From UHGV virus genome UHGV-0114783: DNA of 55,303 nt; one strand, given 5' to 3'. The notes beneath the pieces were generated by a model. It was not told the DNA's origin and made no database searches. It saw nothing but the letters and a program-made list of their open reading frames with translations. The translations under genes and the position numbers were made by a program. This document shows positions 19,944 to 38,328 of the stretch, piece by piece (the first letter of the stretch is position 1; each line of letters starts with the position of its first letter). Source of the stretch: a virus.

Positions 19944-20417
19944 ATGGCTGCATTAAAACCTGATGTGAAAGCCTTCATCATTCAGTCGCTTGCGTGCTAT
20001 GACACGCCATCGCAGGTGGTCGAGGCTGTCCAAAAAGAATTCGGGATCAAGATCACCCGCCAGCAGGCTGAATCTCACGACCCCACGAAGGCCAGCGGTA
20101 AGACGCTCGCCAAAAAGTGGATCGAGATGTTCCACGCGACGCGCGAACGGTTCCTGACCGAAACCAGCGACATTCCGATAGCGAACAAATCCTATCGCCT
20201 CCGCGTGCTTGACCGCATGGCAACCAAAACCGAGGGGATGAAAAACTTCTCCCTGACGGCGCAGCTTATCGAACAGGCCGCGAAAGAGGTTGGCGACGCT
20301 TACACCAATAAGCTGAAGGTTGAGAGCACTGGCAAGGATGGCGGCCCGATCAAGACCGAGACGACCAACCTCACCGCAGATCAGGCCGCAGAGATTTACC
20401 GCAAGATGATGGGGTGA
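19944..20417 (+). CDS. Terminase small subunit (putative)
   Basis: 157-aa ORF directly upstream of and overlapping the large terminase gene. Confidence 0.6.
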
Positions 20418-25389: not shown

Positions 25390-25409
25390 TGCATATCTGT
25401 ACCTTATGC
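25390..25409. repeat. Left flanking repeat TGCATatCTGTACCttATGC (candidate att site of nested element)
   Basis: Matches 38309..38328 at 16 of 20 positions with identical CTGTACC core. Confidence 0.4.
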
Positions 25410-25594
25410 AACTAATATCTATTAATCAGTGCGTTATCGTTCGGAATCATACGGCGTTACTGGCCTGAACCATAAAAATGACACTCCGAACATGTGCGGA
25501 TTTATTCGCCGGATTTCGCTTTGATTCGGTACATGAGGGACTAGAAAGAGAATCATGCGCCGTTTGCATTACATGGTAGCCAGAGAGGTGTTGA

Positions 25595-26824
25595 ATGATT
25601 GTTAGGCCACTAACTAGCGTCGAAGTGAAAAGCGCGAAGGCACAGGGCAAGGATTTCAGTTTGCACGATGGTTTCGGTTTGTTGCTTTACATCACAAGCC
25701 GGGGCGGTAAGTCATGGCGTTTTCGGTATGTACACCCGGTAACGAAGAAGAGACAAACCTATACCATTGGAAGATACCCGGAGTTTACTTTGTCCGAAGC
25801 GAGGGAGGAACGTTCGAAACTGCGCCGTATGGTAGCGCGGGGGATAGATCCGAACGAAGTCAAAAAAGATACCAGGAATGAACAGCGTAAAATGTACGCG
25901 CAGTCATTTCAGGCCGTTGCCGATGAATGGCTAAAAATCAAGATTAAAGAAGGTGCGAGAAGCAACACGCTTGAATCGCACAATGTGACGTTGAAGCATC
26001 TTTCCACGATTTTTAGGCATACCACAGTACATAAAATAAACGCAGCCGATACTATTCAGGCTTTTAAACCTTTCAGGGAAAGGCCATCAACGCTTACGAA
26101 AATGGTTATTACCATCAACGCCATAATGGATTATGCGGTAAATATTGGGGTTATTGAGCACAACCCACTATCGAAAATTGGTAAAGCATTCCCGGCTGAA
26201 AAAAACGAACCAAGAGCGACTTTACAGAAAGAGCGGTTGCCAGAATTTTTAAGCGCATGGAACGAGTTGAGCTTATGGGAGCCATCAAAGCTGGCATTAT
26301 TATTTCAGATCATTACGATGGTCCGACCTTCGGAAGCTGGCGGCGCTCTCTGGAATGAGATTGATTTTGATAATTCAATCTGGCAAATCCCTGCAAGCCG
26401 GATGAAAGGAAAGCGCCCCCACGTAGTCCCATTATCGAGCCAGGCTATAAACGTGCTTAAAGAGGCCGAAAAGTGGAAGCGCTGCGATTATGTTTTCCCC
26501 TCATGGCGAAAAGAAAATAAGCCGATCTCACGATGTGCGACTCAGGCCGGAATACACAAAACGTCGTTTAAAGGAATGATTGTTCCTCATGGGTTCAGGG
26601 CGTTGGCATCTACAGTTTTAAATGACGAGGGGTTCAACCCTGATGTGATTGAGGCTGCACTCGCTCACAAAAGCGCCGATGCGATTCGAAATGTTTATAA
26701 CCGTAGCGACTATCTGGAAAAACGCCGGGTTTTAATGCAATGGTGGGGGGACTTTATCGAGGCCGCAGAGCGTGGAGAGATACTGGAGACCAGCGGCGAT
26801 AAGGGCTTAAGGCTGGTTGTGTAG
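25595..26824 (+). CDS. int: Tyrosine integrase (P4-type) of the nested element
   Basis: 409-aa ORF, ATG with GAGAGG upstream; N-terminal KDFSLHDGFGLLLYITSRGGKSWRFRY and C-terminal HGFRALAST / AHK....R.VYNR motifs. Confidence 0.85.
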   Translation: MIVRPLTSVEVKSAKAQGKDFSLHDGFGLLLYITSRGGKSWRFRYVHPVTKKRQTYTIGRYPEFTLSEAREERSKLRRMVARGIDPNEVKKDTRNEQRKMYAQSFQAVADEWLKIKIKEGARSNTLESHNVTLKHLSTIFRHTTVHKINAADTIQAFKPFRERPSTLTKMVITINAIMDYAVNIGVIEHNPLSKIGKAFPAEKNEPRATLQKERLPEFLSAWNELSLWEPSKLALLFQIITMVRPSEAGGALWNEIDFDNSIWQIPASRMKGKRPHVVPLSSQAINVLKEAEKWKRCDYVFPSWRKENKPISRCATQAGIHKTSFKGMIVPHGFRALASTVLNDEGFNPDVIEAALAHKSADAIRNVYNRSDYLEKRRVLMQWWGDFIEAAERGEILETSGDKGLRLVV

Positions 26825-26966
26825 GGCATATCAATTTTTGGATAATTATGATTTCAAACGGGAATAGCTGGCTTTAAGCCAGCTTTTTTTATGCCCAAAG
26901 CTAACCGGAATGCGTTTTTTTTATTCAAATCATATATAATCATATCGAATATATACGGAGGTTTTT

Positions 26967-27179
26967 ATGTCTATAAGTGGCGGTGATATTCTGCTAAAAG
27001 GTGAAGTGAAAGCGCGTTTACGTTATCGCTCAGACTCGTCATTCTACGAGTTTCTAAAAGACGAGAAAAACGGCTTTCCAATGCCTTTTAAAGTCGGTGG
27101 GCGTAACTGCTGGTATGAAGATGAAGTAGATGCCTGGATAAGTAAACAAAGCGAGAAGCGCGGGATCTGCACATCATGA
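26967..27179 (+). CDS. AlpA-like small regulator/excisionase (putative)
   Basis: 70-aa ORF directly after the integrase gene. Confidence 0.55.
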   Translation: MSISGGDILLKGEVKARLRYRSDSSFYEFLKDEKNGFPMPFKVGGRNCWYEDEVDAWISKQSEKRGICTS

Positions 27180-27318
27180 ATGTTTGCAGATTTGGGAAAG
27201 AGGGCTTGCTAACGGCTATCCGGGCAAGCCCTTTTTATTGTCAGTGGTGGGGATCTGTAACTTACGGCCACCAGCGCCGGTAATCACCTTCTGGCTGGTG
27301 GCTTCACTGGCATGGCTA

Positions 27319-27678
27319 TTACGCTGCCGCATCATCTGAATTGAATTCAATGTGAATTCGGTCATAAGGCAGCACGATTTTTTCGCCGTCTTTGTCCAGA
27401 ACGCCGCCGTTAAGCAGTGACTGAACATCGTTATAAACACCGCGAAAATCACGGTTAACAATGCGTGATAGTTCGCGGATTGATACGGCTTGCGCTCCCT
27501 CCATCGCTTTGATGATCTGCCAGCGGTTAGGGGCAAGCATAGTTTTAGCCAGTTGTTCTACAGTGGGAAAAATCAGTTCGGAACCGATGAAATCCCCGTT
27601 CATTGCGCGGGAGGCGTCGGACATTGTCACCCGGAAAGCATCATCAACGGTCATTACTCTGACGGTCAGCACTCGCAT
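27319..27678 (-). CDS. HTH-containing protein of unknown function (second gene of a two-gene module)
   Basis: 119-aa ORF with HTH-like segment VSIRELSRIVNRDFRGVYNDVQSLL; 4-bp gap from the upstream gene. Confidence 0.45.
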   Translation of the reverse strand: MRVLTVRVMTVDDAFRVTMSDASRAMNGDFIGSELIFPTVEQLAKTMLAPNRWQIIKAMEGAQAVSIRELSRIVNRDFRGVYNDVQSLLNGGVLDKDGEKIVLPYDRIHIEFNSDDAAA

Positions 27679-27682
27679 GGTA

Positions 27683-27964
27683 TTACCTCCTCAACAGGTT
27701 TATGTCAGCCTGAAAGCTGGCGATCAGGTTCTCAATGGTGGTGAATGTCACCGGATATTCCCGATCATGGATGTGTTTGTGGTCGCCTTTGCCACGTTCG
27801 TTGTCGTAACGCATGACGCACTCGCCATCTACGATGTAGGCCAGACTGTACTTGTATTGGTGCTGGCTACCTAAAATTGCCGGGTCTACTTCCAGAATGC
27901 GGATCGAGGCGAAAGCGTTATCAGCTATCTGGATACGGCGGTTCATCAACTCAACAGCGGGCAT
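27683..27964 (-). CDS. Small protein of unknown function (first gene of a two-gene module)
   Basis: 93-aa ORF tightly coupled to the downstream HTH gene. Confidence 0.45.
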   Translation of the reverse strand: MPAVELMNRRIQIADNAFASIRILEVDPAILGSQHQYKYSLAYIVDGECVMRYDNERGKGDHKHIHDREYPVTFTTIENLIASFQADINLLRR

Positions 27965-28204
27965 TGGCTTATCTCCTTGTTGATGTAAATAATAACATCA
28001 CAAACGAATGATGTAAATGATTACATCATTGCGGGTAAGTTACCGATGGCATGAACGGTTCGCTGCTGGTGGCTCTCGATCTCCTGAAATCTCAGGAGAT
28101 TGCCGGGCATGATTTTAATCGGCGGACTTTTCCGCCGATTGAATACGGGCAGTTCGCTCCCTGCGTGTCGGTTTTGTTTGTGGATTATTCGCGTTTCGTT
28201 TCTG

Positions 28205-28310
28205 GTGAATTCGCATTCGCAATTTTTCCGAGAAGCCTTATCCGGCCTGCTTTGAGCAGTGTTCTCTCTTTGCGAATTCGCAATTCCATTCGCACTTTGA
28301 TTCGCAGTTT
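28205..28310. promoter_or_regulatory. Cluster of ATTCGCA heptamer repeats including the palindrome TGCGAATTCGCA
   Basis: Six or more copies of ATTCGCA within about 100 bp of non-coding-looking sequence. Confidence 0.4.
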
Positions 28311-28436
28311 TCAAATGTTCCCATTCCGGGGGCATGGACGATTCGACAGGTGTTACAAACGTTGGTGGTGAAATATCTTCTTGCGCTGGCGGGCAGGGTG
28401 TGGTTATGATTATTTCGCACCTCACAAAACGGGTGC

Positions 28437-28655
28437 CGGGTTTAGCAGCCTGAACGTTCTAGCGGGTAGCCGCTGATTTCCGTATAGCGGTATTTTTACG
28501 CCCGAAAACCAACCACACCCCCGATTTATGGCGGGGCGTGGTGGGGAGGCTTAACGCCTGCTGGTTTCCTAGAACGCCAGTCTGCTAACCCCGCCACGTC
28601 TCGCCACCCATGTTTAGCAGCATCTGGCGAGACTCCTTCAATATGTTCTAGGAGC
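28437..28655 (+). ncRNA. Candidate structured regulatory RNA region with mutually complementary repeats (P4 immunity-like arrangement)
   Basis: TTTAGCAGC...CGTTCTAG at 28441..28462 and again at 28613..28650, complementary block CTAGAACG...TCTGCTAA at 28569..28589, GC hairpin near 28512..28545. Confidence 0.35.
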
Positions 28656-28751
28656 CGCTAAAAATGGCTAGATCCGCACATCCAAAATTCACCTGGCGCT
28701 TTCTCGCGCTTAATCGCCACGACAAAAAAGCCAAACCTTGCCGTTTGTCCG

Positions 28752-29723
28752 TTGAGGCTGCGACCGAACGCGAAGCCCGCCGCATCCTTGCGCCGCACTT
28801 TATTTTGTCTCTGGCCGCACGTCTGCCAGTGCCGGAGGTGCGCCGTGTTTAACCTCCAGACTCTGACAGCCAAAGCCCGCGAGCTGCGCGGCAATGTCGT
28901 TAAAGCGGCGAGCACAAAGGGCAGTCGCACCATGACCCCTGTTTATGACCGCGACGAGCAGCGCAAGCTACGTGAGCGCATCCAGCAGACGCAACCGGAT
29001 TGGGTATTGCTCTGGTGGGATATTGCGACCGTAACCGGCTGGCGTACCAGCGATGTTTGCAACCTGCGCTATTCCTGCGTCAATTGGGAAACGGGGCAGG
29101 CGACAATTATCGTTGCCAAGCAAACCAAAGCCGCCGAAGCGCGGGCAACCCGCAAAGGTATTGAAATTGTGCGCCAGCAGCGCAAGGACGCCGCACGGCT
29201 CGCCGCTGACCATATCGCCTACATGAAGTGGGATAGTATCGGCTGTGATGAACTGGCCGCCGATATGAACGACGAAGAACAGGCGATTGTGTTCGGGCTG
29301 GTGGCAAAGGCTGACGTCAAGCACGACACCAAACAGTTACCGCCCGGCATCATCAAGCGGCTGCGTGACCGGCAGGATCGGAATCTGGTAGAGGACGACC
29401 TGGTATTTTCCCGCTCTCAAATCGAAAGTAACCGTTGTCAACGTCTGGAAGGTAGCGTGACCCGCCAAACCATCTGGCGCAAACTTCATGGCGTCATGGC
29501 GTGGTTTACCCGCTTCATTAACGCTAAATTGCGCCTGAGCGCCTATTCAAGCCGAAAAATAGCAGCCTTTAATCTTATGTCCGCAGGTGGCGAACAGGGC
29601 TTATTGGTGGCGTCTGAAATGCTGGGCCATAGCAACCCGGCGATAACTCGCACTTACCTTCAATTAGGCAGCAAAGCCGCCGCTATCCAGTCCCGTTTAG
29701 CAATGGAGGCCGGAAATGCGTAA
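28752..29723 (+). CDS. Divergent tyrosine-recombinase-like protein (start uncertain)
   Basis: ORF track 323 aa; C-terminal region with TGWRTSD ... LGHSNPAITRTYLQL resembling recombinase boxes; likely real start at an internal GTG/ATG (around 28846 to 28932). Confidence 0.45.
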   Translation: MRLRPNAKPAASLRRTLFCLWPHVCQCRRCAVFNLQTLTAKARELRGNVVKAASTKGSRTMTPVYDRDEQRKLRERIQQTQPDWVLLWWDIATVTGWRTSDVCNLRYSCVNWETGQATIIVAKQTKAAEARATRKGIEIVRQQRKDAARLAADHIAYMKWDSIGCDELAADMNDEEQAIVFGLVAKADVKHDTKQLPPGIIKRLRDRQDRNLVEDDLVFSRSQIESNRCQRLEGSVTRQTIWRKLHGVMAWFTRFINAKLRLSAYSSRKIAAFNLMSAGGEQGLLVASEMLGHSNPAITRTYLQLGSKAAAIQSRLAMEAGNA

Positions 29724-29895
29724 AACCTTCCAGATTGACGGATACGCTGTTAACAGGCGCGGGCATACGGTAGGGATTCACTACACCATGACCAGCACTA
29801 GCCCAGAAACAGCTAAATCTACTGCGCAACTACTGGCGCAGAAGGGCAGCTATAAACACGTTCGCATTACCCGCATTCGTGAGGTGGCAGCATGA
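29716..29895 (+). CDS. Small hypothetical protein (59 aa)
   Basis: Hand-translated ORF with GGAGG ahead of the ATG; overlaps neighbours by a few bases; not in ORF track. Confidence 0.4.
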   Translation: MRKTFQIDGYAVNRRGHTVGIHYTMTSTSPETAKSTAQLLAQKGSYKHVRITRIREVAA

Positions 29896-30155
29896 ACATA
29901 AATACCATCTACCGCCACCCGGCAGAGCTGGAAGCCGAAGCGATGCTATCTCGTAAAGAAGCATACCCGGATGATTTTACGCTGGCAGACCGAACAGCAG
30001 AACGCATGACCCGCGCCCGCAATGGGCTGGCTCACGTTATGACCGATTTAGCCACTCAACTAGACGATGAACAGGCCGCTATCGTGTATTGCTGGCTGAG
30101 TAAAGTCCTGACGATTATCGATATAGCCAGAATTGATGCGGAGGCCAGCGCATGA
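29892..30155 (+). CDS. Hypothetical protein
   Basis: 87-aa ORF, translationally coupled (ATGA overlap). Confidence 0.45.
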   Translation: MNINTIYRHPAELEAEAMLSRKEAYPDDFTLADRTAERMTRARNGLAHVMTDLATQLDDEQAAIVYCWLSKVLTIIDIARIDAEASA

Positions 30156-30373
30156 GCCAGTTACAACTGATTGATGCCACCTGTCAGATTGAACAGGCAC
30201 AGGCTGTTTTATCCATGTGGCTGGAGAGCACCACCAAAGACACTAGCCCCGACCTTCCGCGTCTTATCGGTTCAATCCTCACTTTGCTGCATGGCGTCCC
30301 GGAGGCAATGGAAGAAGCCGAAAGCAAGCTGGCTGACTATGTGATGCGTGAATATCGGGAGGGCAAGTCATGA
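30152..30373 (+). CDS. Hypothetical protein
   Basis: 73-aa ORF, coupled. Confidence 0.45.
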   Translation: MSQLQLIDATCQIEQAQAVLSMWLESTTKDTSPDLPRLIGSILTLLHGVPEAMEEAESKLADYVMREYREGKS

Positions 30374-30960
30374 GCTATCACGCAGAGGCAACGCCGCACG
30401 GCGTCAATATCATGACCAGCAATGATGCCGGGATATATGAGCATGTAGCCATTATAACCTATGAGAGCGCTGTAAGCCGTCTGGATGCGGGAGAGTACGA
30501 CGATACGCCAGATATCGGCTACGCCATTCATTTTGCCGTTGCTGATGGCGGGGCGCGTGGCTGGTTCGACTTTACTGCGCAGCATAACGTCACTATGTGG
30601 CGCTGGCTGATTGCTGCGACGTTCGTTTCTGAGATGAAGCGCGAAAACGGCACAACCTCCGTCACGGAGGCTGACGGCACAACATCGCAGGTGGCGATTT
30701 ACTCCAATGGTAATGCGGGCATGGTGATTTACCCGTTTGCTGAACGGCTGGCGATGGCGAACAACATCGAGGGCGCAATGATTGAGCGATACGGCGTCGA
30801 ACAGGGTACGGAAAACGCCATTGTGTTCTACCGCGCCATGCTGGACACGGAGCGCGGCGAGTTGACCCCGTTCGGGCGTCAGACGCTGGCAGAGCTACAC
30901 GATGGATTCATTGCCGATCTGAATGAAAACGGCTGGCCTGAAATGCCGCTGGCGCACTGA
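30370..30960 (+). CDS. Hypothetical protein
   Basis: 196-aa ORF immediately upstream of the primase gene. Confidence 0.45.
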   Translation: MSYHAEATPHGVNIMTSNDAGIYEHVAIITYESAVSRLDAGEYDDTPDIGYAIHFAVADGGARGWFDFTAQHNVTMWRWLIAATFVSEMKRENGTTSVTEADGTTSQVAIYSNGNAGMVIYPFAERLAMANNIEGAMIERYGVEQGTENAIVFYRAMLDTERGELTPFGRQTLAELHDGFIADLNENGWPEMPLAH

Positions 30961-30973
30961 GGGAGGTACACGA

Positions 30974-33754
30974 ATGCGTAATATCGACCTTATCCGCGAA
31001 GTGACCACCGCCGCAGCAGGGCGCTGGCCTTATGTGCTGGCTGGATTGTCTATCGACGTGCCTGATTCATCGCGCCGCCATGCCCCCTGCCCTGCATGTG
31101 GCGGTACGGATCGCTTCCGGTTCGATGATAACGGGCGCGGCAGCTTTATCTGCAACCAGTGCGGCGCGGGCGACGGGCTGGATTTAATCAAGCGGGTTAA
31201 CAACTGCGACACCACGGAGGCGGCGCACCTTGCCGCTGATGTGCTGGGTATTGATTACCGGGCAGCAGAAACCGACCCGACAGCAGCCAGCCAGAGGCGG
31301 GAGCAAATGGAGTCTGAGCGCCAGCAGCGCGAGCAGGAGCGCCAGAAACAGGCAGCAGAGGACGCAGAGCAGCGAAGGGCTACGTTTGCCAGCCTGTATG
31401 CCGGAATGCGCCAGAGCGTCACACGGGGCGAATCTGAATATCTGATGGCTAAGGGGCTGGACGGGTTCACTTTCCCGCTATTGCCTGATGGTTCAGTCCT
31501 GCTTGAGCTGGTGGATGAGTCCGGCGCAGTGGCAGCCGCACAGACCATCACCCCACAGGGAGAAAAGCGCCTTCTGACAGGTTCAGCAAAGCGCGGGGCA
31601 TATCACGCCGTAAACGCGCCAGAATCGCCGCAGAGCGTTTTAATTGCCGAGGGGCTGGCAACGGCGCTATCCGTTCACCAGATGCACCCCGAAGCGCTGG
31701 CGGTGGTCGCAGTGGACGCCGGAAACCTGCTTTCGGTCGCACAGCTTATGCGCCAAAAGCACCCTAACGCGCGGATCATCATTGCCGCAGACAATGACCA
31801 GAGCGCCGAAAGTGACAGAAGAGGAGGAGTGAAAATTAACACAGGTAAGGAGTGCGCGGAGAAAGCCGCAAAAGCCGTTGCTGGCTGGGCCTCGCTGCCA
31901 CCCGTGGACTACAAAGCGGACTGGAACGATTACCACCAACAATATGGACTGGAAGCCGCTACAGCAGCATTTAACGCCTCAATGTACCAACCGGAGGGTA
32001 AGAAAGTGGGTGTGACACTGGCAGCAATCGACGGCGGCAAGAAAAGCCCTGGTATCGACGACGACCTTAAACCGCGAGTAGAGAGCCGTTCGGATGGCAT
32101 TCACTGGATCACCCCGAAAGTGGACAAAGACACAGGGGAAATTATCAATACCGAGGCGTGGCTATGCTCTCCGCTGGAGATTGCTGGTGCAGGGAGTGAT
32201 AACGCCAGACAGCGCTTTCTGATCCTGCGTTGGGACGTTCCCGGCAATCGGGGGCAAGTTACCCGTGCGCTTCCTTGGGAGGACATTGGCGACCGCGAGG
32301 GATGGCGAACTCTGAAAAACGGCGGTGTCAGTGTGACGACCAAACCATCGTTGCGGGCAATTCTGGCCGACTGGCTACAGCGAACCGGTAGCGGCAAGGA
32401 GTGGCAGATCAGCCACACCACAGGCTGGCACAGCGGGGCGTACATCATGCCGGATGGTGATGTTATTGGTGATCCAGAGATACCGCTTTTATTCAGTGGC
32501 CGCAGTGCGGCGGCTGGTGGCTATACCGTCAGTGGAACGCCGGAAAGCTGGCGTGATTCGGTGGCGCGTCTTGCGTTGGGCAACCCGTCAATGATGCTGG
32601 GTGTTGCTGCTGCGCTGTCTGCACCGCTGATCGGGCTTGTTGGCGCTGACGGTTTCGGTGTTCACCTTTTCGAACAGTCCAGCGCAGGGAAGACGACGAC
32701 CGCCAACATTGCCAGCAGCTTATACGGTGAACCGGATGCCCTGCGCCTCACCTGGTACGGTACTGCGCTGGGTATCGCCAACGAAGCGGAAGCGCATAAC
32801 GACAGCCTGTTACCGCTGGACGAAGTGGGGCAGGGCAGTAGCGCCAAAGACGTTGCCACGTCGGCTTACACGCTGTTTAACGGTGCCGGAAAGTTACAGG
32901 GGGCGAAGGAGGGCGGCAACCGTGAGTTAAAGCGCTGGCGTACCGTGGCGATCAGTACCGGGGAAATGGACATTGAAACGTTTCTTTCTGCTGGTGGGCT
33001 GAAAGTTAAGGCCGGGCAACTGGTGCGACTGCTTAATTTACCGATGGAGAAATCAGTAACGCACCATGAGTACCAGAACGGGAAGCAACACGCCGACGCA
33101 CTCAAAGAGGCTTACCAGACGAACCACGGAGCCGCAGGCCGTGAATGGATTAAATGGCTTGCAGGCCACCAGCAGGAGGCAAAACAAGCTGTCAGAGCGG
33201 CGCAAGAGCGCTGGCGCAGTCTTATCCCCGCTGATTATGGCGAACAGGTTCATCGTGTAGGCGAGCGGTTCGCCATTCTGGAGGCGGCGCTGGTGCTTGG
33301 GATGCCTGTCACTGGCTGGGGGGAGCAGGAAAGCCGGGACGCCATCCAGCATGGCTTTAACGCCTGGGTGAAAGAGTTTGGCACGGGGAACCGTGAGCAT
33401 AAGCAGATCATCGAGCAGGCAGAGGCGTTTCTTAATGCATACGGACTGAGCCGATTTGCACCTTACCCTTATGACCCGGCTGACATGCCGATTCGGGATT
33501 TGGCCGGGTACCGTCAGAAAGGGGCGCATGATGCTGATCCGATAGTGTTCTACACGTTCCCGGCAGCATTCGAAGGTGAGATTGCGAAGGGATTCAACGC
33601 GAAACAGTTTGCCCGTGTGCTGGCCGGGGCTGGGGTGCTGAAACCGCCAGCCAGCGGAAGGGGGTATCAGCGTAAATCCCCGCGAATTGATGGACGCCAG
33701 ATAAACGTTTATGTGCTCCAGCTACGACCCGACGAGATAGAGGGTGAAGAATAA
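30974..33754 (+). CDS. Primase-helicase (P4 alpha-like: zinc ribbon, TOPRIM, Walker-A NTPase)
   Basis: ORF track 30923..33754 trimmed to the ATG at 30974; CPACGG...CNQCG zinc ribbon, TOPRIM-like IAEGLATA...IIIAADND, Walker A GADGFGVHLFEQSSAGKTT. Confidence 0.85.
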   Translation: MRNIDLIREVTTAAAGRWPYVLAGLSIDVPDSSRRHAPCPACGGTDRFRFDDNGRGSFICNQCGAGDGLDLIKRVNNCDTTEAAHLAADVLGIDYRAAETDPTAASQRREQMESERQQREQERQKQAAEDAEQRRATFASLYAGMRQSVTRGESEYLMAKGLDGFTFPLLPDGSVLLELVDESGAVAAAQTITPQGEKRLLTGSAKRGAYHAVNAPESPQSVLIAEGLATALSVHQMHPEALAVVAVDAGNLLSVAQLMRQKHPNARIIIAADNDQSAESDRRGGVKINTGKECAEKAAKAVAGWASLPPVDYKADWNDYHQQYGLEAATAAFNASMYQPEGKKVGVTLAAIDGGKKSPGIDDDLKPRVESRSDGIHWITPKVDKDTGEIINTEAWLCSPLEIAGAGSDNARQRFLILRWDVPGNRGQVTRALPWEDIGDREGWRTLKNGGVSVTTKPSLRAILADWLQRTGSGKEWQISHTTGWHSGAYIMPDGDVIGDPEIPLLFSGRSAAAGGYTVSGTPESWRDSVARLALGNPSMMLGVAAALSAPLIGLVGADGFGVHLFEQSSAGKTTTANIASSLYGEPDALRLTWYGTALGIANEAEAHNDSLLPLDEVGQGSSAKDVATSAYTLFNGAGKLQGAKEGGNRELKRWRTVAISTGEMDIETFLSAGGLKVKAGQLVRLLNLPMEKSVTHHEYQNGKQHADALKEAYQTNHGAAGREWIKWLAGHQQEAKQAVRAAQERWRSLIPADYGEQVHRVGERFAILEAALVLGMPVTGWGEQESRDAIQHGFNAWVKEFGTGNREHKQIIEQAEAFLNAYGLSRFAPYPYDPADMPIRDLAGYRQKGAHDADPIVFYTFPAAFEGEIAKGFNAKQFARVLAGAGVLKPPASGRGYQRKSPRIDGRQINVYVLQLRPDEIEGEE

Positions 33755-33778
33755 AAACACACATACGAGATGTTTTTT

Positions 33779-34073
33779 TGTTGGTTCAGTTGGTTCAGTA
33801 ACTATTTAATTAATATAAGTGTGTGTATTTAATGCATTTACATGCTTGTAAGTGAACCAACACCGAACCAACAAACGCCCATTTTGAACCAACAAATGCC
33901 GCTATTGAACCAACGCCCTTTTCTGGCTGGCCTGTAAATCTTTCCCACTGAACCAACACGAAAATAGCGTTTGTTGGTTCAAAACGGGGCTTTGTTGGTT
34001 CACTCCTAAAGAAATAATCCTTATAAAACAACAATCTTTACAAATTGAACCAACTGAACCAACTGAACCAACA
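33779..34073. repeat. Iteron array, about a dozen GAACCAAC/GTTGGTTC octamers in both orientations (candidate origin of the nested element)
   Basis: Direct reading: TTGGTTCAG x2, GAACCAAC x5, GTTGGTTC x2, then GAACCAACTGAACCAACTGAACCAAC, immediately downstream of the primase gene. Confidence 0.7.
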
Positions 34074-34355
34074 TGTTTTTGCTTATCTATAGAGTTTTTT
34101 CGGAGAGTAATTACTAATTTGGAGGGGCGTCGCCTAAGCGAAAGTATGCGGAAACGGCAACTTTGCGGAGCGGAAAAGAAAAAGCCCGCGCTGGAGAGGC
34201 GAGGGCTTTTGTTAACCATGTTTATGCAATCACACAACGGTGGATCACCGTCATAGTATCACGTCGATTTATCATTTCAATATGCGCAATGATATTTACT
34301 AACATTGCAATTTATGCAATGATCAGAATTTAAACAACGCAAAAGGTTATGAACA

Positions 34356-34919
34356 ATGAAACAGATAACCAATGTTAATCTGGAAAGTGATAACTCTGGT
34401 GGTACCGTCGAGGTGACTTACTCCGATGATACGTTCGAAAGGCTGACCTGCTCGCTTCCTGTGGCTCTCGTCATTGCGAATCTTGCAACGACGCTTAAGC
34501 AGGAACGTGCAACACGCATTGCAACTGGCGACCGCCTGCGTCGGATGTACACCCGCGATAGTGACATGATTACTCGCAGTGGCAGCGGCGCTTCTACGAC
34601 CTCCACCGCGCCAACGTCAATGGACGCTGAATTTATGCGCCTGGTACGCGCGGTAGCACCAAAGTATGACAACGCCCTTCCTGATACCGATCCTCGCCTT
34701 GTTGCGCTCGACGTGCTGCGTTACGCACCCGCTGAGGCATTCAGTGCGGTACATCCGACCCCGCTATCAGAGATTCAGCTTGATCAGGCTATCGACGTTC
34801 TGGAGCAGGTTGGCGACTACATGCGAGTTAACAACGTTTCACCGAAGATTCTCTCCACAGGCGACGCCATTCGCAGCATTAACACCGATAATGCCAGTTT
34901 CTGGCATCGCACGAAGTAA
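34356..34919 (+). CDS. Hypothetical protein
   Basis: 187-aa ORF after the iteron region. Confidence 0.45.
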   Translation: MKQITNVNLESDNSGGTVEVTYSDDTFERLTCSLPVALVIANLATTLKQERATRIATGDRLRRMYTRDSDMITRSGSGASTTSTAPTSMDAEFMRLVRAVAPKYDNALPDTDPRLVALDVLRYAPAEAFSAVHPTPLSEIQLDQAIDVLEQVGDYMRVNNVSPKILSTGDAIRSINTDNASFWHRTK

Positions 34920-34925
34920 GGAGCA

Positions 34926-35120
34926 ATGAGCATGGCTATTTATGACCCGAAATTAGCAGCAGGAAACCCGCAAAGCGCCGGGCGTAAACTCTTTGGCCGT
35001 GAGCATGCCGAGCAGTTACGTATGCGTAACAACTTCAACAACGAATGCCGCAATCTGGAAAAAGTCAACGAAGCGAATGCAAAGTTCTGGAGTGAACAGG
35101 ATGAAAAAGCCAAACGTTAA
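34926..35120 (+). CDS. Hypothetical protein
   Basis: 64-aa ORF. Confidence 0.35.
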   Translation: MSMAIYDPKLAAGNPQSAGRKLFGREHAEQLRMRNNFNNECRNLEKVNEANAKFWSEQDEKAKR

Positions 35121-35268
35121 ACCGGTATTACTTTCTGGCGACCAGTTCGCCGCAATCTGCAAGATCCAGGAGCGCGAACGCCAGCGCTCCGATATTGGCG
35201 TTGCGCCTTCTGTCCATCAAATTGCCCGTGGGCTGGTGGCGAAAGCGCTGGCATCAATTCAGGAATAA
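35101..35268 (+). CDS. Hypothetical protein (55 aa)
   Basis: ORF track 34993..35268 trimmed to the ATG at 35101. Confidence 0.3.
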   Translation: MKKPNVKPVLLSGDQFAAICKIQERERQRSDIGVAPSVHQIARGLVAKALASIQE

Positions 35269-35273
35269 CGACT

Positions 35274-36341
35274 ATGTCATATAACTGGATGCGCCATTTC
35301 GAGCTACAGCTCATCGATGAGAATGGCAAAGGAATTAGCCTTAGTGATTTCAAAGTTACCTTTGATATAGAGCGTAACGATAACAAATGGCCAGCTGTTG
35401 CGACGGTCAAGATCTACAACCTTTCACCAACTACTCAGAACCGTATTATGCAACGTGAGTTTGCCAAAATTGTGTTGATAGCGGGGTATGATGGTCGTGC
35501 GCAGGATGTAAGGGCAAGTGATGTGGGGATTGCACGTGAAATATCAGCAAGCGAAGTGGGCCAGGCTAACGGCGCAAACTACGGAGTCATTTTCAGCGGT
35601 GATATCCGCTTCACTGTGACCGGAAAAGATAACCCTGTCGATTCATGGGTACAGGTGCAGGCTTGTGACTCTGTGGAGGCGTTTACCAGCGCATTTATCA
35701 ACACCACTATCAGCAAAGGCTACACCACAGAAGATATTTATGTTGAGCTTATGAAAAGGCTGGAACCTTACGGCATTTCTCGCGGTATTGTTCCTGAATT
35801 CCCGGCAACGGTATTTCCTCGCGGTCGAGCCCTCTTTGGCTATGTCCATAACTATCTCGATGAAGTGGCCGCGCAGTGCAAAGCCACTTGGCAATTCAAC
35901 TATGGAAAAGTCGATATTGTTCCCAGAGACAAGGCCACTCATGAAGCTGTGGTTCTCAACGCTAATACCGGGCTTATCGGTATGCCTCAGCAGACCATCG
36001 GTGCGGGTGTGAATGTCAAATGCCTGATTAACTCACGGATTCACCTGAACGGGCTTATCCAACTGGATCAGGCTTCGGTATATCGTAGCGCCTTATCTGC
36101 GGATCAAATTGCCCAAGCTGGTGGGCCAATTTCGGTGGAAAGCCAAAACGGAAACCTTGTCACTACTGGATTAACGCAGAGTCCGGCGAGCATTGCTACC
36201 GATGGTATCTATAAGGTTCGGTATATCAGTTACACGGGCGACACGCGCGGTCAAGCGTGGTATATGGATCTGGCGTGTGAGGCTCGCGGGAATTCTGATT
36301 TATTTTCAAGTTCATTTATGAATAAGCAGAGTGAAGAATGA
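35274..36341 (+). CDS. Baseplate hub-like protein, diverged second copy
   Basis: 355-aa ORF colinear with 47449..48513 (shared WMRHFELQL, RFTVTGKDN, AVVLNANTGLIGMPQQT, YTGDTRGQAWYMDL blocks). Confidence 0.65.
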   Translation: MSYNWMRHFELQLIDENGKGISLSDFKVTFDIERNDNKWPAVATVKIYNLSPTTQNRIMQREFAKIVLIAGYDGRAQDVRASDVGIAREISASEVGQANGANYGVIFSGDIRFTVTGKDNPVDSWVQVQACDSVEAFTSAFINTTISKGYTTEDIYVELMKRLEPYGISRGIVPEFPATVFPRGRALFGYVHNYLDEVAAQCKATWQFNYGKVDIVPRDKATHEAVVLNANTGLIGMPQQTIGAGVNVKCLINSRIHLNGLIQLDQASVYRSALSADQIAQAGGPISVESQNGNLVTTGLTQSPASIATDGIYKVRYISYTGDTRGQAWYMDLACEARGNSDLFSSSFMNKQSEE

Positions 36342-36682
36342 AGAAGATTATTTTACTGATTGGTTTATTGGGCGCATCTGGAAGTCATGCTGCGCAGGTT
36401 ATTACCATGCAGTGCGGAAACTTTCGCTTTGAGATGATAGAAAACTCGATGGCGAGAATTAATGGTGAGTATGTAACATCTCAGAAAATTACAGAGTTCG
36501 GACAGAACGGGGCAAAAGTAGAAATGACGCTTATGCCTGCCAGCGATGGGAATCTGTATGGGTTTGAATACATCCATCCTGACGGTAGCAAAAAGCGCTG
36601 GCTGAATGTTGAGCTTATCCGCACCAATATGAATCAGGCGCGGATCATTGGCTCGTTTGATTGTAAGCGCGTGAAGGGGTAA
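36338..36682 (+). CDS. Small secreted protein with conserved QCG.F and DCK...KG motifs (second copy)
   Basis: 114-aa ORF with signal-peptide-like N-terminus, same position between hub and spike genes as the phage copy. Confidence 0.5.
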   Translation: MKKIILLIGLLGASGSHAAQVITMQCGNFRFEMIENSMARINGEYVTSQKITEFGQNGAKVEMTLMPASDGNLYGFEYIHPDGSKKRWLNVELIRTNMNQARIIGSFDCKRVKG

Positions 36683-36690
36683 GGGGAATC

Positions 36691-37353
36691 ATGCCATTCA
36701 TTCGACCCGCAAATGAGCAGGATGTAACACAGCTTGTTCAGGACAATGCTAAAGCATCTGTAACCAATGCGTTACCTGGCATTATTCGTTCGTTCGATCC
36801 CGAAACTGTCACCTGCGATGTTGATATAGCCATTACGGCAAGAATGACGAAGGCTGGCACAATGGGTGAAGATTTCCAGTATGAGTCCGTCCGCTATCCG
36901 ATTCTTAACGATTTGCCTGTGGTTTTTCCGCGCGGGGGCGGAGTTACGCTTACTTTCCCGGTTAAAGATGGTGATGAATGCCTCATCGTATTCTCTTCGC
37001 GTTCGATTGATTTCTGGTGGCAGAACGGCGGTGTGCAGGAGCGAGCTGATGGGCGTATTTTAGATCTGTCTGATGCGTTCGTTATTCCTGGCCCCCAATC
37101 ACAGGTAAAGAAGATATCCAATATCAGTACCAACGCTGCGCAGCTGCGTACAGATGATGGAGCGGCATTTGTAGAGGTGTCCGCTGGTGGAGCCATTACT
37201 ATTACCAGCTCTCAAATCACCCTTAACGGGCCCGTGCAGGTAAACGGAACGATCACTTCCACTGGCGACCAAACGGCCAACGGTATCAGCCAGATTAACC
37301 ATACCCACGGCGGCGTACAATCAGGCGGCAGCAACACAGGAAAACCACAATGA
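36691..37353 (+). CDS. Baseplate central spike protein (gpV-like), diverged second copy
   Basis: 220-aa ORF colinear with 49246..49986 (shared FPRGGG.TLTFPVK.GDECL, DLSDAF, TDDGAAFVEV, HGGVQ.GG..TG.PQ end). Confidence 0.65.
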   Translation: MPFIRPANEQDVTQLVQDNAKASVTNALPGIIRSFDPETVTCDVDIAITARMTKAGTMGEDFQYESVRYPILNDLPVVFPRGGGVTLTFPVKDGDECLIVFSSRSIDFWWQNGGVQERADGRILDLSDAFVIPGPQSQVKKISNISTNAAQLRTDDGAAFVEVSAGGAITITSSQITLNGPVQVNGTITSTGDQTANGISQINHTHGGVQSGGSNTGKPQ

Positions 37354-37529
37354 GCAATATTGAAAAACTGAAACCAGAAGAAAGCGGAGCCAGCCAGAAT
37401 GGAAAGGTTCGTACCTGGCTGGATGATATCAACGGGCAGCCGGAACCAGATGGTATTGGCAGCTTCGGTGAGAGTGCGATCTGCGAAGAATCACGCACAG
37501 CGGAAACCATGCGAAATAACGTAGGGTGA
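37350..37529 (+). CDS. Small hypothetical protein (59 aa)
   Basis: Hand-translated ORF starting at the ATGA overlap with the preceding gene; not in ORF track. Confidence 0.3.
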   Translation: MSNIEKLKPEESGASQNGKVRTWLDDINGQPEPDGIGSFGESAICEESRTAETMRNNVG

Positions 37530-37619
37530 CGGTCAGATGACGTGATCTGTAACTTTAAGTAGCGGTGCAGGGGCAGAACTCAGCACGCTACTTTTATTTT
37601 CTTTGTCAAAAGGTGAACA

Positions 37620-38093
37620 ATGGCGGCATTACCAACAATGGCTAAGGTTATGATTATTCAATCATTAGCTTGCTACGAACCCCCTTCCAGAATCGTTGAG
37701 CTTGTAAAACAAGATTTTGGCATCGTCGTTACCCGGCAGCAGATATCGGCCTACAACCCTGAAAATACAATGGCAAAAAATCTTAGCCAAAAATGGGTAG
37801 AACTCTTTAATCACACTCGCGCCCGCTTCCAGAGTGAAATATCCGAGATCCCTATCGCTAACAAAGCGTACCGGCTGCGTATGCTCGATCGCATGGCTAA
37901 CCGTGCAGAGGCAATCAAGAATTACGCATTAACAGCGCAGCTTATTGAACAGGCCGCGAAAGAGTGCGGGGACGCTTACACCAACAAATTAAAGGTTGAA
38001 ACAACGGGTAAAGATGGTGGTCCGATCAGAACGGAAACAACGAACTTAACCGCCGAAGAAGCCGGGGAGGCATACCGCAAATTTATGGGATAA
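37620..38093 (+). CDS. Orphan terminase small subunit homolog (no adjacent TerL)
   Basis: 157-aa ORF colinear with the phage TerS at 19944..20417, roughly two-thirds identical by eye, nearly identical C-terminal third. Confidence 0.65.
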   Translation: MAALPTMAKVMIIQSLACYEPPSRIVELVKQDFGIVVTRQQISAYNPENTMAKNLSQKWVELFNHTRARFQSEISEIPIANKAYRLRMLDRMANRAEAIKNYALTAQLIEQAAKECGDAYTNKLKVETTGKDGGPIRTETTNLTAEEAGEAYRKFMG

Positions 38094-38308
38094 CCACCAG
38101 CGCCGTGACACGTCACACGCAAAAATAGCACCGCCCATTAATGGGCTGGTGGCACAGCTTGCATATTGAAATTCCCTGTAAATCTTACAGATCTGGTATT
38201 GAGTAACTTACCCCATTCAGCGCCACACATCACAGAGCAGCCTATGGACTACACACAAAATCAGGCTGAAAATAAATCCTTATATTTCAGTTGATTAAAT
38301 AATAGCCT

Positions 38309-38328
38309 TGCATTCCTGTACCGGATGC
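38309..38328. repeat. Right flanking repeat TGCATtcCTGTACCggATGC (candidate att site of nested element)
   Basis: Matches 25390..25409; the ATG within it is the start codon of the next head gene. Confidence 0.4.

What the first reader, a model, noticed from the sequence alone, without database searches (positions are those of the whole stretch)
28437..28655. Non-coding region with complementary repeats arranged like P4 RNA immunity
TTTAGCAGC...CGTTCTAG occurs at 28441..28462 and again at 28613..28650, and a block at 28569..28589 is its reverse complement, so one central segment could pair with either flanking copy. A GC-rich hairpin lies near 28512..28545. This is the arrangement of the P4 immunity region, where a small RNA pairs with two target sequences on the nascent transcript. 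It lies upstream of the replication-gene operon of the insert. The ORF-track reading frames across it (28021..28425, 28051..28371) look non-coding.
Basis: partly seen in the sequence, partly recalled or inferred. Interest (0 to 1): 0.6.

Follow-up and report, generated by a model that had tools for sequence, protein, structure and literature searches.

The report
C4/CI-type antisense immunity RNA module

Summary
The repeats exist as described and are not chance. Window 28524-28611 (+) matches Rfam RF01695 (C4 antisense RNA) at 76.1 bits against a threshold of 45; phage P4's own CI RNA hits the same model. The region 28417-28670 is colinear with the P1/P7 immI leader and about 80% identical to it. 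It holds a leader hairpin, target a1 (TTTAGCAG) in a hairpin loop, target b1 (GTTCTAG), a terminator-like hairpin and the C4 RNA carrying b' (CTAGAAC) and a' (CTGCTAA). After the RNA come a2 and then b2, which is fused to the Shine-Dalgarno of a 62-aa Icd/Kil-like ORF. That ORF heads an operon ending in a P4-alpha-like primase. Across 25 distinct homologues the RNA loops and both target sets change together. The cognate RNA binds best for 25 of 25 target sets, and 14 of 28 helix pairs show compensatory changes. The element is a 12.9-kb satellite embedded in an Omnitron-like prophage, a class already reported to carry C4/isrK-type immunity RNAs. What is new is modest. The b-site was seen in no other element type sampled (the a-site equals P7's). 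The output is a recombinase-like gene plus replication genes rather than Ant, and P4's nested eta reading frame is absent. Expression, processing and termination are inferred by homology, not shown.

The parts
28381..28410 (+). Putative constitutive promoter, the equivalent of P4 PLE: -35 TTGCGC at 28381-28386, an 18-nt spacer, and -10 TATGAT at 28405-28410. The inferred transcription start is near 28417.
   Evidence: Both hexamers are conserved in L027, L029 and E. coli EC2001 while the spacer and upstream sequence differ. The position matches P4 PLE (TTGCCT-17-TATAGT) just ahead of the homologous leader hairpin. The consensus scan did not call it, because the -35 matches only 3 of 6 bases.
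28417..28436 (+). Leader hairpin 1 (GCACCUCACAAAACGGGUGC), the start of the IsrK/SeqA-like leader.
   Evidence: Sub-threshold isrK match over 28417-28497, 44.6 bits against a threshold of 50. The hairpin appears in the predicted fold and is conserved in P1, P4, L029 and L047.
28437..28452 (+). Hairpin presenting target a1 (UUUAGCAG, 28441-28448) in its loop.
   Evidence: Matches the c4-a1b1 model layout. It is complementary to a' at 28582-28588. The a-site sequence is identical to that of P7 and Ro157c2.
28455..28462 (+). Target b1 (CGUUCUAG), complementary to the b' loop.
   Evidence: 8 bp with 28569-28576. It changes together with b' and b2 in every homologue.
28469..28497 (+). Terminator-like hairpin (stem 28469-28475 paired with 28485-28491) followed by AUUUUUA. 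It is the equivalent of the IsrK terminator.
   Evidence: Present in the fold, conserved in P1, P7, D6 and P4, and part of the isrK model match. It is too weak, or its loop too long, for the terminator scan.
28524..28611 (+). C4/CI-type antisense RNA gene (Rfam RF01695). The predicted mature RNA is 28530-28608 (79 nt), by alignment to the annotated 77-nt P1 C4.
   Evidence: 76.1 bits, E = 3.7e-13. Fold energy is -49.5 kcal/mol with z = -5.8. 99.6% of cells are paired, and 14 of 28 pairs show compensatory changes over 26 homologues. G-U pairs and the score difference between strands (85 vs 18 bits) fix the + strand.
28566..28576 (+). b' recognition loop (UUCCUAGAACG) of hairpin 2. It pairs with b1 and with b2 plus the Shine-Dalgarno sequence.
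28582..28588 (+). a' recognition segment (CUGCUAA) in the single-stranded linker. It pairs with a1 and a2.
28598..28633 (+). Alternative precursor hairpin (GUCUCGCC ... GGCGAGAC) that would present a2 in its loop. It competes with the 3' strand of the C4 basal helix.
   Evidence: Present in the fold of the unprocessed transcript. The equivalent complementarity is visible in P4 (GCUAUCGCC/GGCGAUAGC) and the other loci.
28613..28620 (+). Target a2 (UUUAGCAG).
28644..28654 (+). Target b2 (UGUUCUAG) fused to the Shine-Dalgarno AGGAG (28650-28654) of the Icd-like ORF. The TAG at 28649-28651 is an in-frame stop that closes the frame upstream.
   Evidence: 10-11 bp with 28566-28576, including G-U pairs. 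The same layout occurs in P1 (annotated b2 over the icd ribosome-binding site) and in P4.
28664..28852 (+). 62-aa Icd/Kil-like ORF, the first gene of the controlled operon. Its start region is C-rich and G-poor.
   Evidence: NCBIfam NF033153 phage_ICD_like, E = 1.1e-22. It is 48% identical to P4 Kil and 38% to P1 Icd. The C/G ratio reaches 2.25 in 78-nt windows at 28654-28750.
28845..29723 (+). 292-aa tyrosine-recombinase-like gene. Its GTG start overlaps the icd-like stop codon, so the two are translationally coupled.
   Evidence: Pfam Phage_integrase, E = 1e-10; phrog_216. RefSeq annotates the homologue as 'integrase' in E. coli EC2001.
29716..33754 (+). The rest of the operon: four small or medium ORFs with overlapping ends, then a 943-aa primase/helicase (30923-33754).
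   Evidence: ORF list. phrog_1139 DNA primase, E = 2e-182. Zn-ribbon, Toprim and DUF927 domains. 35% identity to the P4 alpha primase domain.

Best explanation
This is the RNA-based immunity (self-repression) module of an integrated phage satellite. A weak constitutive promoter near 28381-28410 transcribes a leader (28417-28523) and the C4/CI-type RNA, which by homology would be cut out as a stable RNA of about 79 nt (28530-28608). The RNA's hairpin loop b' (CUAGAAC) and linker a' (CUGCUAA) pair with a2 (28613-28620) and with b2 plus the Shine-Dalgarno sequence (28644-28654) on later transcripts from the same promoter. That pairing blocks translation of the 62-aa Icd/Kil-like ORF. Untranslated, C-rich RNA is then exposed to Rho, so transcription stops before the recombinase-like gene and the primase operon, and the satellite stays quiescent. 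The upstream copies a1/b1 pair with the same loops. They can act in cis during precursor folding, or as a short IsrK/SeqA-like RNA ending at the terminator-like hairpin that competes for C4. Shown here: family membership, structure, strand, three-way complementarity and its co-variation, the overlap with the ribosome-binding site, and the operon layout. Inferred from P1, P4 and Gifsy-1 work: expression, RNase P-type processing, translational block, Rho-dependent termination, and the role of a1/b1.
For: - **Family match.** Rfam C4 scores 76.1 bits against a threshold of 45, and P4 CI and P1 C4 hit the same model.
- **Similarity to P1/P7.** The region is 78-82% identical and colinear with the P1/P7/D6 immI leader, c4 and the a2 target (28436-28621).
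- **Fold and helices.** The fold is stable at -49.5 kcal/mol, z = -5.8. Helices are supported by covariation: 14 of 28 pairs carry double changes, 0 of 500 shuffles reach the observed values, and slid controls give about 45% pairing against 99.6%.
- **Co-variation with targets.** Among 25 distinct antisense segments the cognate RNA is the best binder for 25 of 25 target sets. Mean cognate energy is -53.5 against -34.2 kcal/mol for non-cognate, and 0 of 100000 permutations reach the observed total.
- **Ribosome-binding site.** b2 overlaps the AGGAG of an ORF that matches NF033153 Icd-like at E = 1e-22.
- **Operon layout.** The next gene's start overlaps the icd-like stop, and all genes through the primase are co-directional with overlapping ends.
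- **Possible rut site.** The start of the icd-like ORF is C-rich and G-poor.
- **Conservation.** The module is 100% identical in E. coli EC2001 and 98% identical in IMG/VR contigs, where the single helix difference converts G-C to G-U.
- **Literature.** C4 blocks icd/ant in P1 (PMC8198154, citing Citron & Schuster 1990). P4 CI pairs with seqA/seqC to cause premature termination, and IsrK is a structural homologue of SeqA (PMC4825925). C4 and isrK Rfam hits occur in GN-PICIs and HE-PICIs (PMC10111431).
Against: - There are no expression data.
- The promoter is assigned only by homology, has a poor -35, and was not called by the scan.
- The leader models are below their thresholds: isrK 44.6 against 50, c4-a1b1 19.5 against 46.7.
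- The terminator-like hairpin between b1 and C4 could stop many transcripts before the RNA gene.
- The regulated genes differ from both models: there is no ant (P1) and no eta/epsilon (P4).
- Rho dependence rests on base composition and analogy only.
Confidence: 0.8

Rival explanations
1. IsrK-type positive switch. The main regulator is the short leader RNA (about 28417-28498, ending at the terminator-like hairpin). As in Gifsy-1, it binds the C4-like segment of read-through transcripts in trans and opens an otherwise closed structure to activate translation of the downstream ORF. On this view the 'C4' segment acts mainly as a cis-inhibitory structure, not as a diffusible repressor.
For: The leader has all three IsrK hairpins, including the terminator, and scores 44.6 bits on isrK. 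In the fold of the full transcript, a1/b1 pair in cis with b'/a'. The Gifsy-1 experiments show this mode of action, including a processed species of about 80 nt (STnc1160) from the 'orf45' region (PMC4825925).
Against: The isrK match is below threshold. The terminator-like hairpin is weak, with a 5-7 bp stem, a 9-nt loop and 5 U residues. The downstream a2/b2 copy over the Shine-Dalgarno sequence is the better-conserved interaction: cognate is best for 23 of 25 RNAs downstream against 17 of 25 upstream, which fits trans repression as in P1 and P4. The two modes are not mutually exclusive.
Confidence: 0.15
2. P1-type immI module. The RNA controls an antirepressor that inactivates a helper or host repressor, rather than the satellite's replication genes.
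For: The nucleotide sequence is closest to P1/P7 c4, and the a-site is identical to P7's.
Against: There is no Ant, KilA or Bro domain downstream. The gene coupled to icd is tyrosine-recombinase-like, and the operon runs on into a primase.
Confidence: 0.05
3. Inactive relic. The module was inherited from a P1-like or P4-like ancestor and no longer functions in this element.
For: Only 18 of 5426 complete E. coli genomes carry matching DNA, and there are no expression data.
Against: All six recognition sites, the helices, the Shine-Dalgarno sequence and the ORF are intact. The sequence is identical in an E. coli genome and 98% identical in metagenomic viral contigs, where the only helix change preserves pairing. 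The b-site differs from all relatives at all three copies at once, which requires selection for pairing.
Confidence: 0.04
4. Chance repeats in a non-coding spacer.
For: None beyond the shortness of each repeat (7-9 nt).
Against: Rfam E = 3.7e-13. The motif occurs nowhere else in the 55-kb window. It co-varies across 25 homologues.
Confidence: 0.01

Closest known systems
C4 antisense RNA of the immI operon (c4-icd-ant) of phages P1 and P7 (Rfam RF01695, with targets RF03163)
   Same: 78-82% nucleotide identity over the leader, the RNA and a2. The order is the same: hairpin, a1, b1, terminator-like hairpin, C4, a2, then b2 over the ribosome-binding site of icd. The spacings are the same (7 nt between a1 and b1, 6 nt between b' and a'). 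An Icd-like first ORF is translationally coupled to the next gene. The a-site is identical to that of P7.
   Different: The b-site (GUUCUAG/CUAGAAC) matches none of P1, P7, D6 or Ro157c2. There is no ant gene: the coupled gene is tyrosine-recombinase-like and the operon continues into replication genes. No C1 operator was looked for or found upstream. The element is a satellite, not a plasmid prophage. The loop is one nucleotide longer.
Satellite phage P4 immunity: CI RNA (seqB) with seqA and seqC, expressed from PLE
   Same: It belongs to the same Rfam family. One target lies upstream and one downstream, and the downstream one covers the ribosome-binding site of a Kil/Icd-like ORF (48% identical to P4 Kil). 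The module sits ahead of an operon that ends in an alpha-type primase. The promoter position is homologous to PLE. An AlpA/Vis-like gene lies upstream.
   Different: Nucleotide similarity to P4 cI is too low for blastn. There is no eta long ORF spanning the RNA gene, because an in-frame TAG lies within b2. No epsilon, orf151, sid, delta or psu was found. The helicase half of the primase is DUF927 rather than the P4 type.
IsrK - orf45/STnc1160 - anrP locus of Salmonella prophage Gifsy-1 (Rfam RF01394)
   Same: A leader of three hairpins, the last followed by a U run, lies ahead of a segment of about 80 nt that is complementary to it. A short ORF is coupled to the next gene.
   Different: The isrK model score is below threshold (44.6 against 50). 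The downstream gene is not an AnrP-type antirepressor. The activating role of the short leader RNA has not been tested here.
Immunity RNAs in the 'Bro zone' of Gram-negative PICIs and helper-embedded PICIs (PMC10111431)
   Same: The zone order of integrase and AlpA, a variable zone with C4/isrK hits, a primase zone, then a late zone with captured phage late genes matches the 25404-38308 insert. The insert lies inside a prophage's late operon.
   Different: The helper here is of the Omnitron/SEN34 type rather than lambda-like. The insertion lies in the spacer between two head genes. No Bro-N protein was recognised in the variable zone, which holds a TumE/HVO_A0114 pair instead.

Membership tests
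Rfam RF01695 C4 antisense RNA (P1/P7 C4, P4 CI) | Covariance-model score at or above the curated gathering threshold, full length | tested here: met
   76.1 bits against 45, model positions 1-87 of 87, E = 3.7e-13.
Rfam RF01695 C4 antisense RNA (P1/P7 C4, P4 CI) | Long basal helix enclosing two hairpins, supported by compensatory changes | tested here: met
   99.6% of cells paired and 14 of 28 pairs with changes on both sides. 0 of 500 shuffles reach the observed values, and slid controls pair at 31-48%. MFE is -49.5 kcal/mol with z = -5.8.
Rfam RF01695 C4 antisense RNA (P1/P7 C4, P4 CI) | The loop (b') and linker (a') are complementary to one target pair upstream and one downstream on the same transcript, and co-vary with them | tested here: met
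   7-bp a-site and 8-11-bp b-site pairings. The cognate RNA is best for 25 of 25 target sets, and 0 of 100000 permutations reach the observed total.
Rfam RF01695 C4 antisense RNA (P1/P7 C4, P4 CI) | The downstream target overlaps the ribosome-binding site of an Icd/Kil-like ORF | tested here: met
   b2 at 28644-28651 overlaps AGGAG at 28650-28654, and the ATG is at 28664. The ORF matches NF033153 at E = 1.1e-22.
Rfam RF01695 C4 antisense RNA (P1/P7 C4, P4 CI) | A stable processed RNA of about 77 nt made by RNase P-type cleavage of a longer transcript | not testable with these tools
   Only the predicted ends (28530-28608) can be given, by alignment to the annotated P1 C4.
P1/P7 immI operon | An antirepressor gene (ant1/ant2) follows icd | tested here: not met
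   The coupled gene matches only Phage_integrase. No Ant, KilA or Bro match was found in 28845-30960.
P4 immunity region | CI homologue flanked by seqA-like and seqC-like targets downstream of a PLE-like promoter | tested here: inconclusive
   The RNA and both targets are present. The promoter hexamers TTGCGC-18-TATGAT are conserved in relatives and lie where PLE lies in P4, but they fall below the consensus-scan criteria.
P4 immunity region | Nested eta/kil reading frames spanning the RNA gene | tested here: not met
   No + strand ORF covers 28420-28660. The TAG at 28649-28651 is in frame with the ATG at 28664.
P4 immunity region | Controls an operon that encodes an alpha-type primase/helicase | tested here: met
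   Co-directional overlapping ORFs run to 30923-33754. The primase domain is 35% identical to P4 alpha, E = 3e-46.
P4-type satellite | Capsid-size and late-control genes sid, delta and psu | tested here: not met
   No such match was found for any ORF of 25404-38308 in the PHROGs or Pfam searches.
Rfam RF01394 isrK / P4 SeqA leader | Covariance-model score at or above the gathering threshold | tested here: not met
   44.6 bits against 50 at 28417-28497. All three hairpins are nevertheless present, and P4 and eight other relatives pass with 60-76 bits.
Helper-embedded PICI (PMC10111431) | A satellite with int, alpA, a variable zone, a primase zone and a late zone, integrated inside a prophage late operon | tested here: met
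   Relative to Citrobacter phage Omnitron (99% identical flanks), 25404-38308 is an insertion between two head genes. The same embedding occurs in E. coli EC2001.

The most novel reading that the evidence does not exclude
In this helper-embedded satellite the C4 RNA may gate more than replication. It would also gate a second, catalytic-domain-only tyrosine recombinase (28845-29723) that is translationally coupled to the Icd-like ORF. RNA immunity would then time the satellite's excision from the helper's head-gene operon and so decide when the helper can express its downstream late genes. The short IsrK-like leader RNA would act as the anti-repressor. The P7-type a-site could additionally allow partial cross-talk with P7-like plasmid prophages.
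Probability: 0.08. Interest if true: 0.5.

Novelty: new member of a known kind. Interest (0 to 1): 0.2.

Why it matters
The result gives a precise, unannotated regulatory RNA gene for this satellite; RefSeq annotates no RNA at the identical locus in E. coli EC2001. It defines the satellite's immunity specificity as a P7-type a-site combined with a b-site not seen elsewhere in the sample. It adds a clear example of the C4/CI module being exchanged as a cassette between plasmid prophages, P4-type satellites and helper-embedded PICIs. Near-identical Icd-like genes in other satellites are preceded by a protein-repressor module instead. The result does not change how this class of regulator is understood.

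Tried and rejected
- **Column-based pair counting for the target sites.** MAFFT placed the window's extra loop nucleotide inside b' and shifted the a' register by one in the P4-like sequences. Column counts would therefore have been artefactual, so I used an alignment-free comparison of cognate and non-cognate duplex energies. A first version picked the wrong GCCGGT anchor and was discarded.
- **Promoter scan.** It found no + strand promoter near the leader. The promoter is proposed from homology only.
- **Extra targets of the RNA in the helper prophage.** The best other hit, 49549-49577 at -30.5 kcal/mol, lies inside an ORF, is not at a ribosome-binding site, and relies on nucleotides buried in the hairpin-2 stem. 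I judged it to be chance.
- **P4-like eta long ORF across the RNA gene.** It is absent.
- **Coding test of 28021-28425 and 28051-28371.** Substitutions against L027 and L029 are spread evenly over codon positions (9/9/13 and 14/12/19), so these frames are not coding, although PGAP calls a 'hypothetical protein' there in EC2001.
- **tRNA integration site.** There is no tRNA in the window.
It appears only as an alternative precursor fold.
- **Primary papers.** The P4 papers PMC176756 and PMC94026 are not held in the library. They are cited only through the papers that cite them.

Full report
**Observation**

- TTTAGCAGC lies at 28441-28449 and again at 28613-28621.
- CGTTCTAG lies at 28455-28462 and TGTTCTAG at 28644-28651.
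- 28569-28589 is the near-exact reverse complement of the first copy.

The repeat finder reports the direct and the inverted repeat. A regular-expression search finds the composite motif nowhere else in the 55-kb window.

**Identity**

A search of the whole window against Rfam gives a single hit above threshold. It is RF01695, C4 antisense RNA, at 28524-28611 on the + strand, with 76.1 bits against a threshold of 45 and E = 3.7e-13, over the full length of the model.

A permissive search adds two sub-threshold matches just upstream:
- isrK at 28417-28497, 44.6 bits against 50.
- The a1/b1 target model at 28404-28456, 19.5 bits against 46.7.

blastn against phage genomes shows that 28436-28621 is 78-82% identical to the c4 region of P1, P7, D6, SJ46 and other P1-like phages. 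P4's own immunity region hits the same two Rfam models, C4 at 74.9 bits and isrK at 60.8 bits.

**Anatomy**

I aligned the window with the annotated P1 immI region and with P4. This gives the following layout on the + strand.

| Feature | Coordinates | Notes |
|---|---|---|
| Leader hairpin | 28417-28436 | start of the IsrK/SeqA-like leader |
| Second hairpin | 28437-28452 | its loop is a1, UUUAGCAG |
| b1 | 28455-28462 | CGUUCUAG |
| Terminator-like hairpin plus U run | 28469-28497 | equivalent of the IsrK terminator |
| C4 RNA | 28524-28611 | predicted mature form 28530-28608, from the annotated 77-nt P1 C4 |
| b' loop | 28566-28576 | within the RNA |
| a' linker | 28582-28588 | within the RNA |
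| a2 | 28613-28620 | UUUAGCAG |
| b2 | 28644-28651 | runs into the Shine-Dalgarno AGGAG (28650-28654) |
| ATG of the first ORF | 28664 | Icd/Kil-like ORF |

The ORF is 62 aa. It matches NCBIfam 'host cell division inhibitor Icd-like' at E = 1.1e-22. It is 48% identical to the P4 Kil-type ORF and 38% identical to P1 Icd.

The TAG inside b2 is in frame with the ATG. No N-terminally extended Eta-like protein can therefore be made, unlike in P4 as described in PMC10111431.

**Structure**

The RNA alone folds to -49.5 kcal/mol, with z = -5.8 against shuffles. I built a covariance model from 12 homologues and used it to align 26 C4 genes.

On that alignment 99.6% of cells form pairs, 14 of 28 pairs show changes on both sides, and no shuffle or slid control comes close. 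Invariant G-U pairs, and 85 bits on the + strand against 18 on the - strand, fix the orientation.

I collected 104 loci through the Icd-like protein, which is independent of the RNA, and added P1-like phages. This gave 25 distinct antisense segments. The a and b sites differ widely among them, and in each locus the upstream copy, the RNA and the downstream copy change together.

An alignment-free comparison of duplex energies gave these results:
- The cognate RNA is the best binder for 25 of 25 target sets.
- Mean cognate energy is -53.5 kcal/mol against -34.2 for non-cognate pairs.
- None of 100000 permutations reaches the observed total.
- For the window, the cognate total is -58.2. The next best is -37.6 (its RNA on P7 targets) or -43.3 (Ro157c2 RNA on its targets).

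The window's a-site equals that of P7 and Ro157c2. Its b-site (GUUCUAG/CUAGAAC) occurs only in near-identical copies of the same element, namely L027/L028 and E. coli EC2001.

**Context**

The flanks of the window are 99% identical to Citrobacter phage Omnitron. Relative to that phage, 25404-38308 is an insertion between a DUF2213 head gene and the next virion gene, bounded by an imperfect 14-nt repeat.

| Zone of the insert | Content |
|---|---|
| Integration | P4-type integrase and an AlpA-like gene |
| Variable | TumE/HVO_A0114 pair on the other strand, then the C4 module |
| Replication operon | icd-like ORF, a coupled 292-aa tyrosine-recombinase-like gene, four further ORFs, and a 943-aa Zn-ribbon/Toprim/DUF927 primase 35% identical to P4 alpha |
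| After the primase | iteron-like repeats |
| Late | baseplate-hub-like, spike-like and DUF2280 small-terminase-like genes |

This is the four-zone layout of Gram-negative PICIs and helper-embedded PICIs. The paper that defined that layout reports that Rfam C4 and isrK hit several such elements (PMC10111431). The same element sits at the same prophage site in E. coli EC2001, where no RNA gene is annotated.

**Promoter**

The consensus scan finds no + strand promoter near the leader. However, TTGCGC (28381-28386), an 18-nt spacer and TATGAT (28405-28410) lie exactly where PLE lies before the homologous hairpin in P4. Both hexamers are conserved in relatives whose spacer and upstream DNA differ. 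In L027-L031 a 356-aa lipoprotein-like gene lies immediately upstream of this point.

**Mechanism**

The following comes from published work on P1 and P4.
- In P1, C4 blocks icd/ant expression (PMC8198154, citing Citron & Schuster 1990).
- In P4, CI pairs with seqA and seqC and causes premature termination (as summarised in PMC4825925 and PMC10111431).
- That translation of kil/icd protects the transcript from Rho is my own knowledge of Biere et al. 1992, Briani et al. 1996 and Forti et al. 1999. I could not read those papers here.

On that basis the most likely mechanism is as follows. The processed RNA pairs with a2 and b2, occludes the Shine-Dalgarno sequence of the icd-like ORF, and uncouples translation from transcription. 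Rho then terminates before the recombinase-like and replication genes.

One observation is consistent with this. The first 90 nt or so of the ORF are C-rich and G-poor, with C/G up to 2.25, whereas the downstream genes have C/G below 1.

The upstream a1/b1 copy pairs with the RNA in cis in the predicted precursor fold. By analogy with Gifsy-1 IsrK it could also be released as a short RNA that titrates C4 (PMC4825925). None of these steps is shown for this locus.

**What is and is not new**

The kind of regulator, its family and its presence in PICI-type satellites are all known. Specific to this locus:
- a combination of a and b sites not seen in other element types;
- a P1-like c4 sequence wired in the P4 manner to a replication operon;
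- a recombinase-like gene as the coupled second gene;
- no eta frame.

Icd-like genes 81-94% identical to this one occur in other satellites behind a protein-repressor module instead of C4. This shows that the immunity module is exchanged as a cassette.

**Verdict**

This is a new member of a known kind, of low interest.

Noticed in passing
window 25404-38308 (junctions 25390-25403 and 38309-38322): Relative to Citrobacter phage Omnitron (99% identical flanks), the window carries a 12.9-kb insertion in the spacer between a DUF2213 head gene and the next virion gene. It is flanked by the imperfect repeat TGCATATCTGTACC / TGCATTCCTGTACC. This is a helper-embedded PICI-type satellite in a non-lambdoid (Omnitron/SEN34-type) prophage. 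The same embedding is present in E. coli EC2001.
   Followed up: partly
window 35274-38093: The satellite's late zone carries a baseplate-hub-like gene (35274-36341), a gpV-type spike gene with an Apex motif (36691-37353), and a DUF2280 protein (37620-38093). The last is a paralogue of the prophage's putative small terminase at 19944-20417. This suggests captured helper late genes and possible redirection of packaging.
   Followed up: partly
window 27319-28030 (- strand): A TumE toxin (27683-27964) and an HVO_A0114-family partner (27319-27678) lie on the - strand. Their promoter is strong and extended: TTTACA-17-TATTAT at 28017-27989. A 10-nt perfect palindrome at 28007-28030 overlaps its -35. 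The pair is absent from the otherwise near-identical elements in EC2001 and L027, so it is accessory cargo in the variable zone.
   Followed up: partly
window 28197-28310: Four copies of a 12-nt unit (ATTCGCAnTTT), plus an inverted copy, lie in a non-coding stretch upstream of the C4 promoter. Substitutions against relatives show no codon bias. The function is unknown; it could be a regulator binding site or an origin element.
   Followed up: partly
window 33834-34073: Iteron-like direct repeats (GAACCAACA core, with 21-nt and 15-nt units) lie immediately after the primase gene. They are a candidate replication origin, comparable to P4 crr.
   Followed up: no
window 28845-29723: A 292-aa tyrosine-recombinase-like protein with only about 40 residues ahead of the catalytic domain and a large internal insertion. 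By eye the Arg, His and Tyr motifs (GWRTSD ... SSRK ... LGHSN ... TRTY) appear present. Its GTG start overlaps the stop of the Icd-like ORF, so it would be under C4 control.
   Followed up: no
L004 2580-2990; also L003, L032-L046: Satellites whose Icd-like protein is 81-94% identical to the window's have no C4 RNA upstream. L004, the one locus read, has a divergent 64-aa ORF and three TGTTCAACAC repeats there instead, which looks like a protein-repressor module swapped for the RNA module in front of the same gene.
   Followed up: partly
L027 1610-2680 (IMG/VR contig), corresponding to window 28355/28398: Close relatives carry a 356-aa lipoprotein-like gene (signal peptide with a lipobox) inserted exactly between the repeat region and the C4 promoter. 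The window and EC2001 lack it. This is a second cargo hotspot in the variable zone.
   Followed up: no
L003, L015, L024, L035, L037 (near their int/alpA ends): The Rfam int-alpA RNA (RF02996) is found in several related satellites (40-61 bits) but not in the window at gathering threshold.
   Followed up: no
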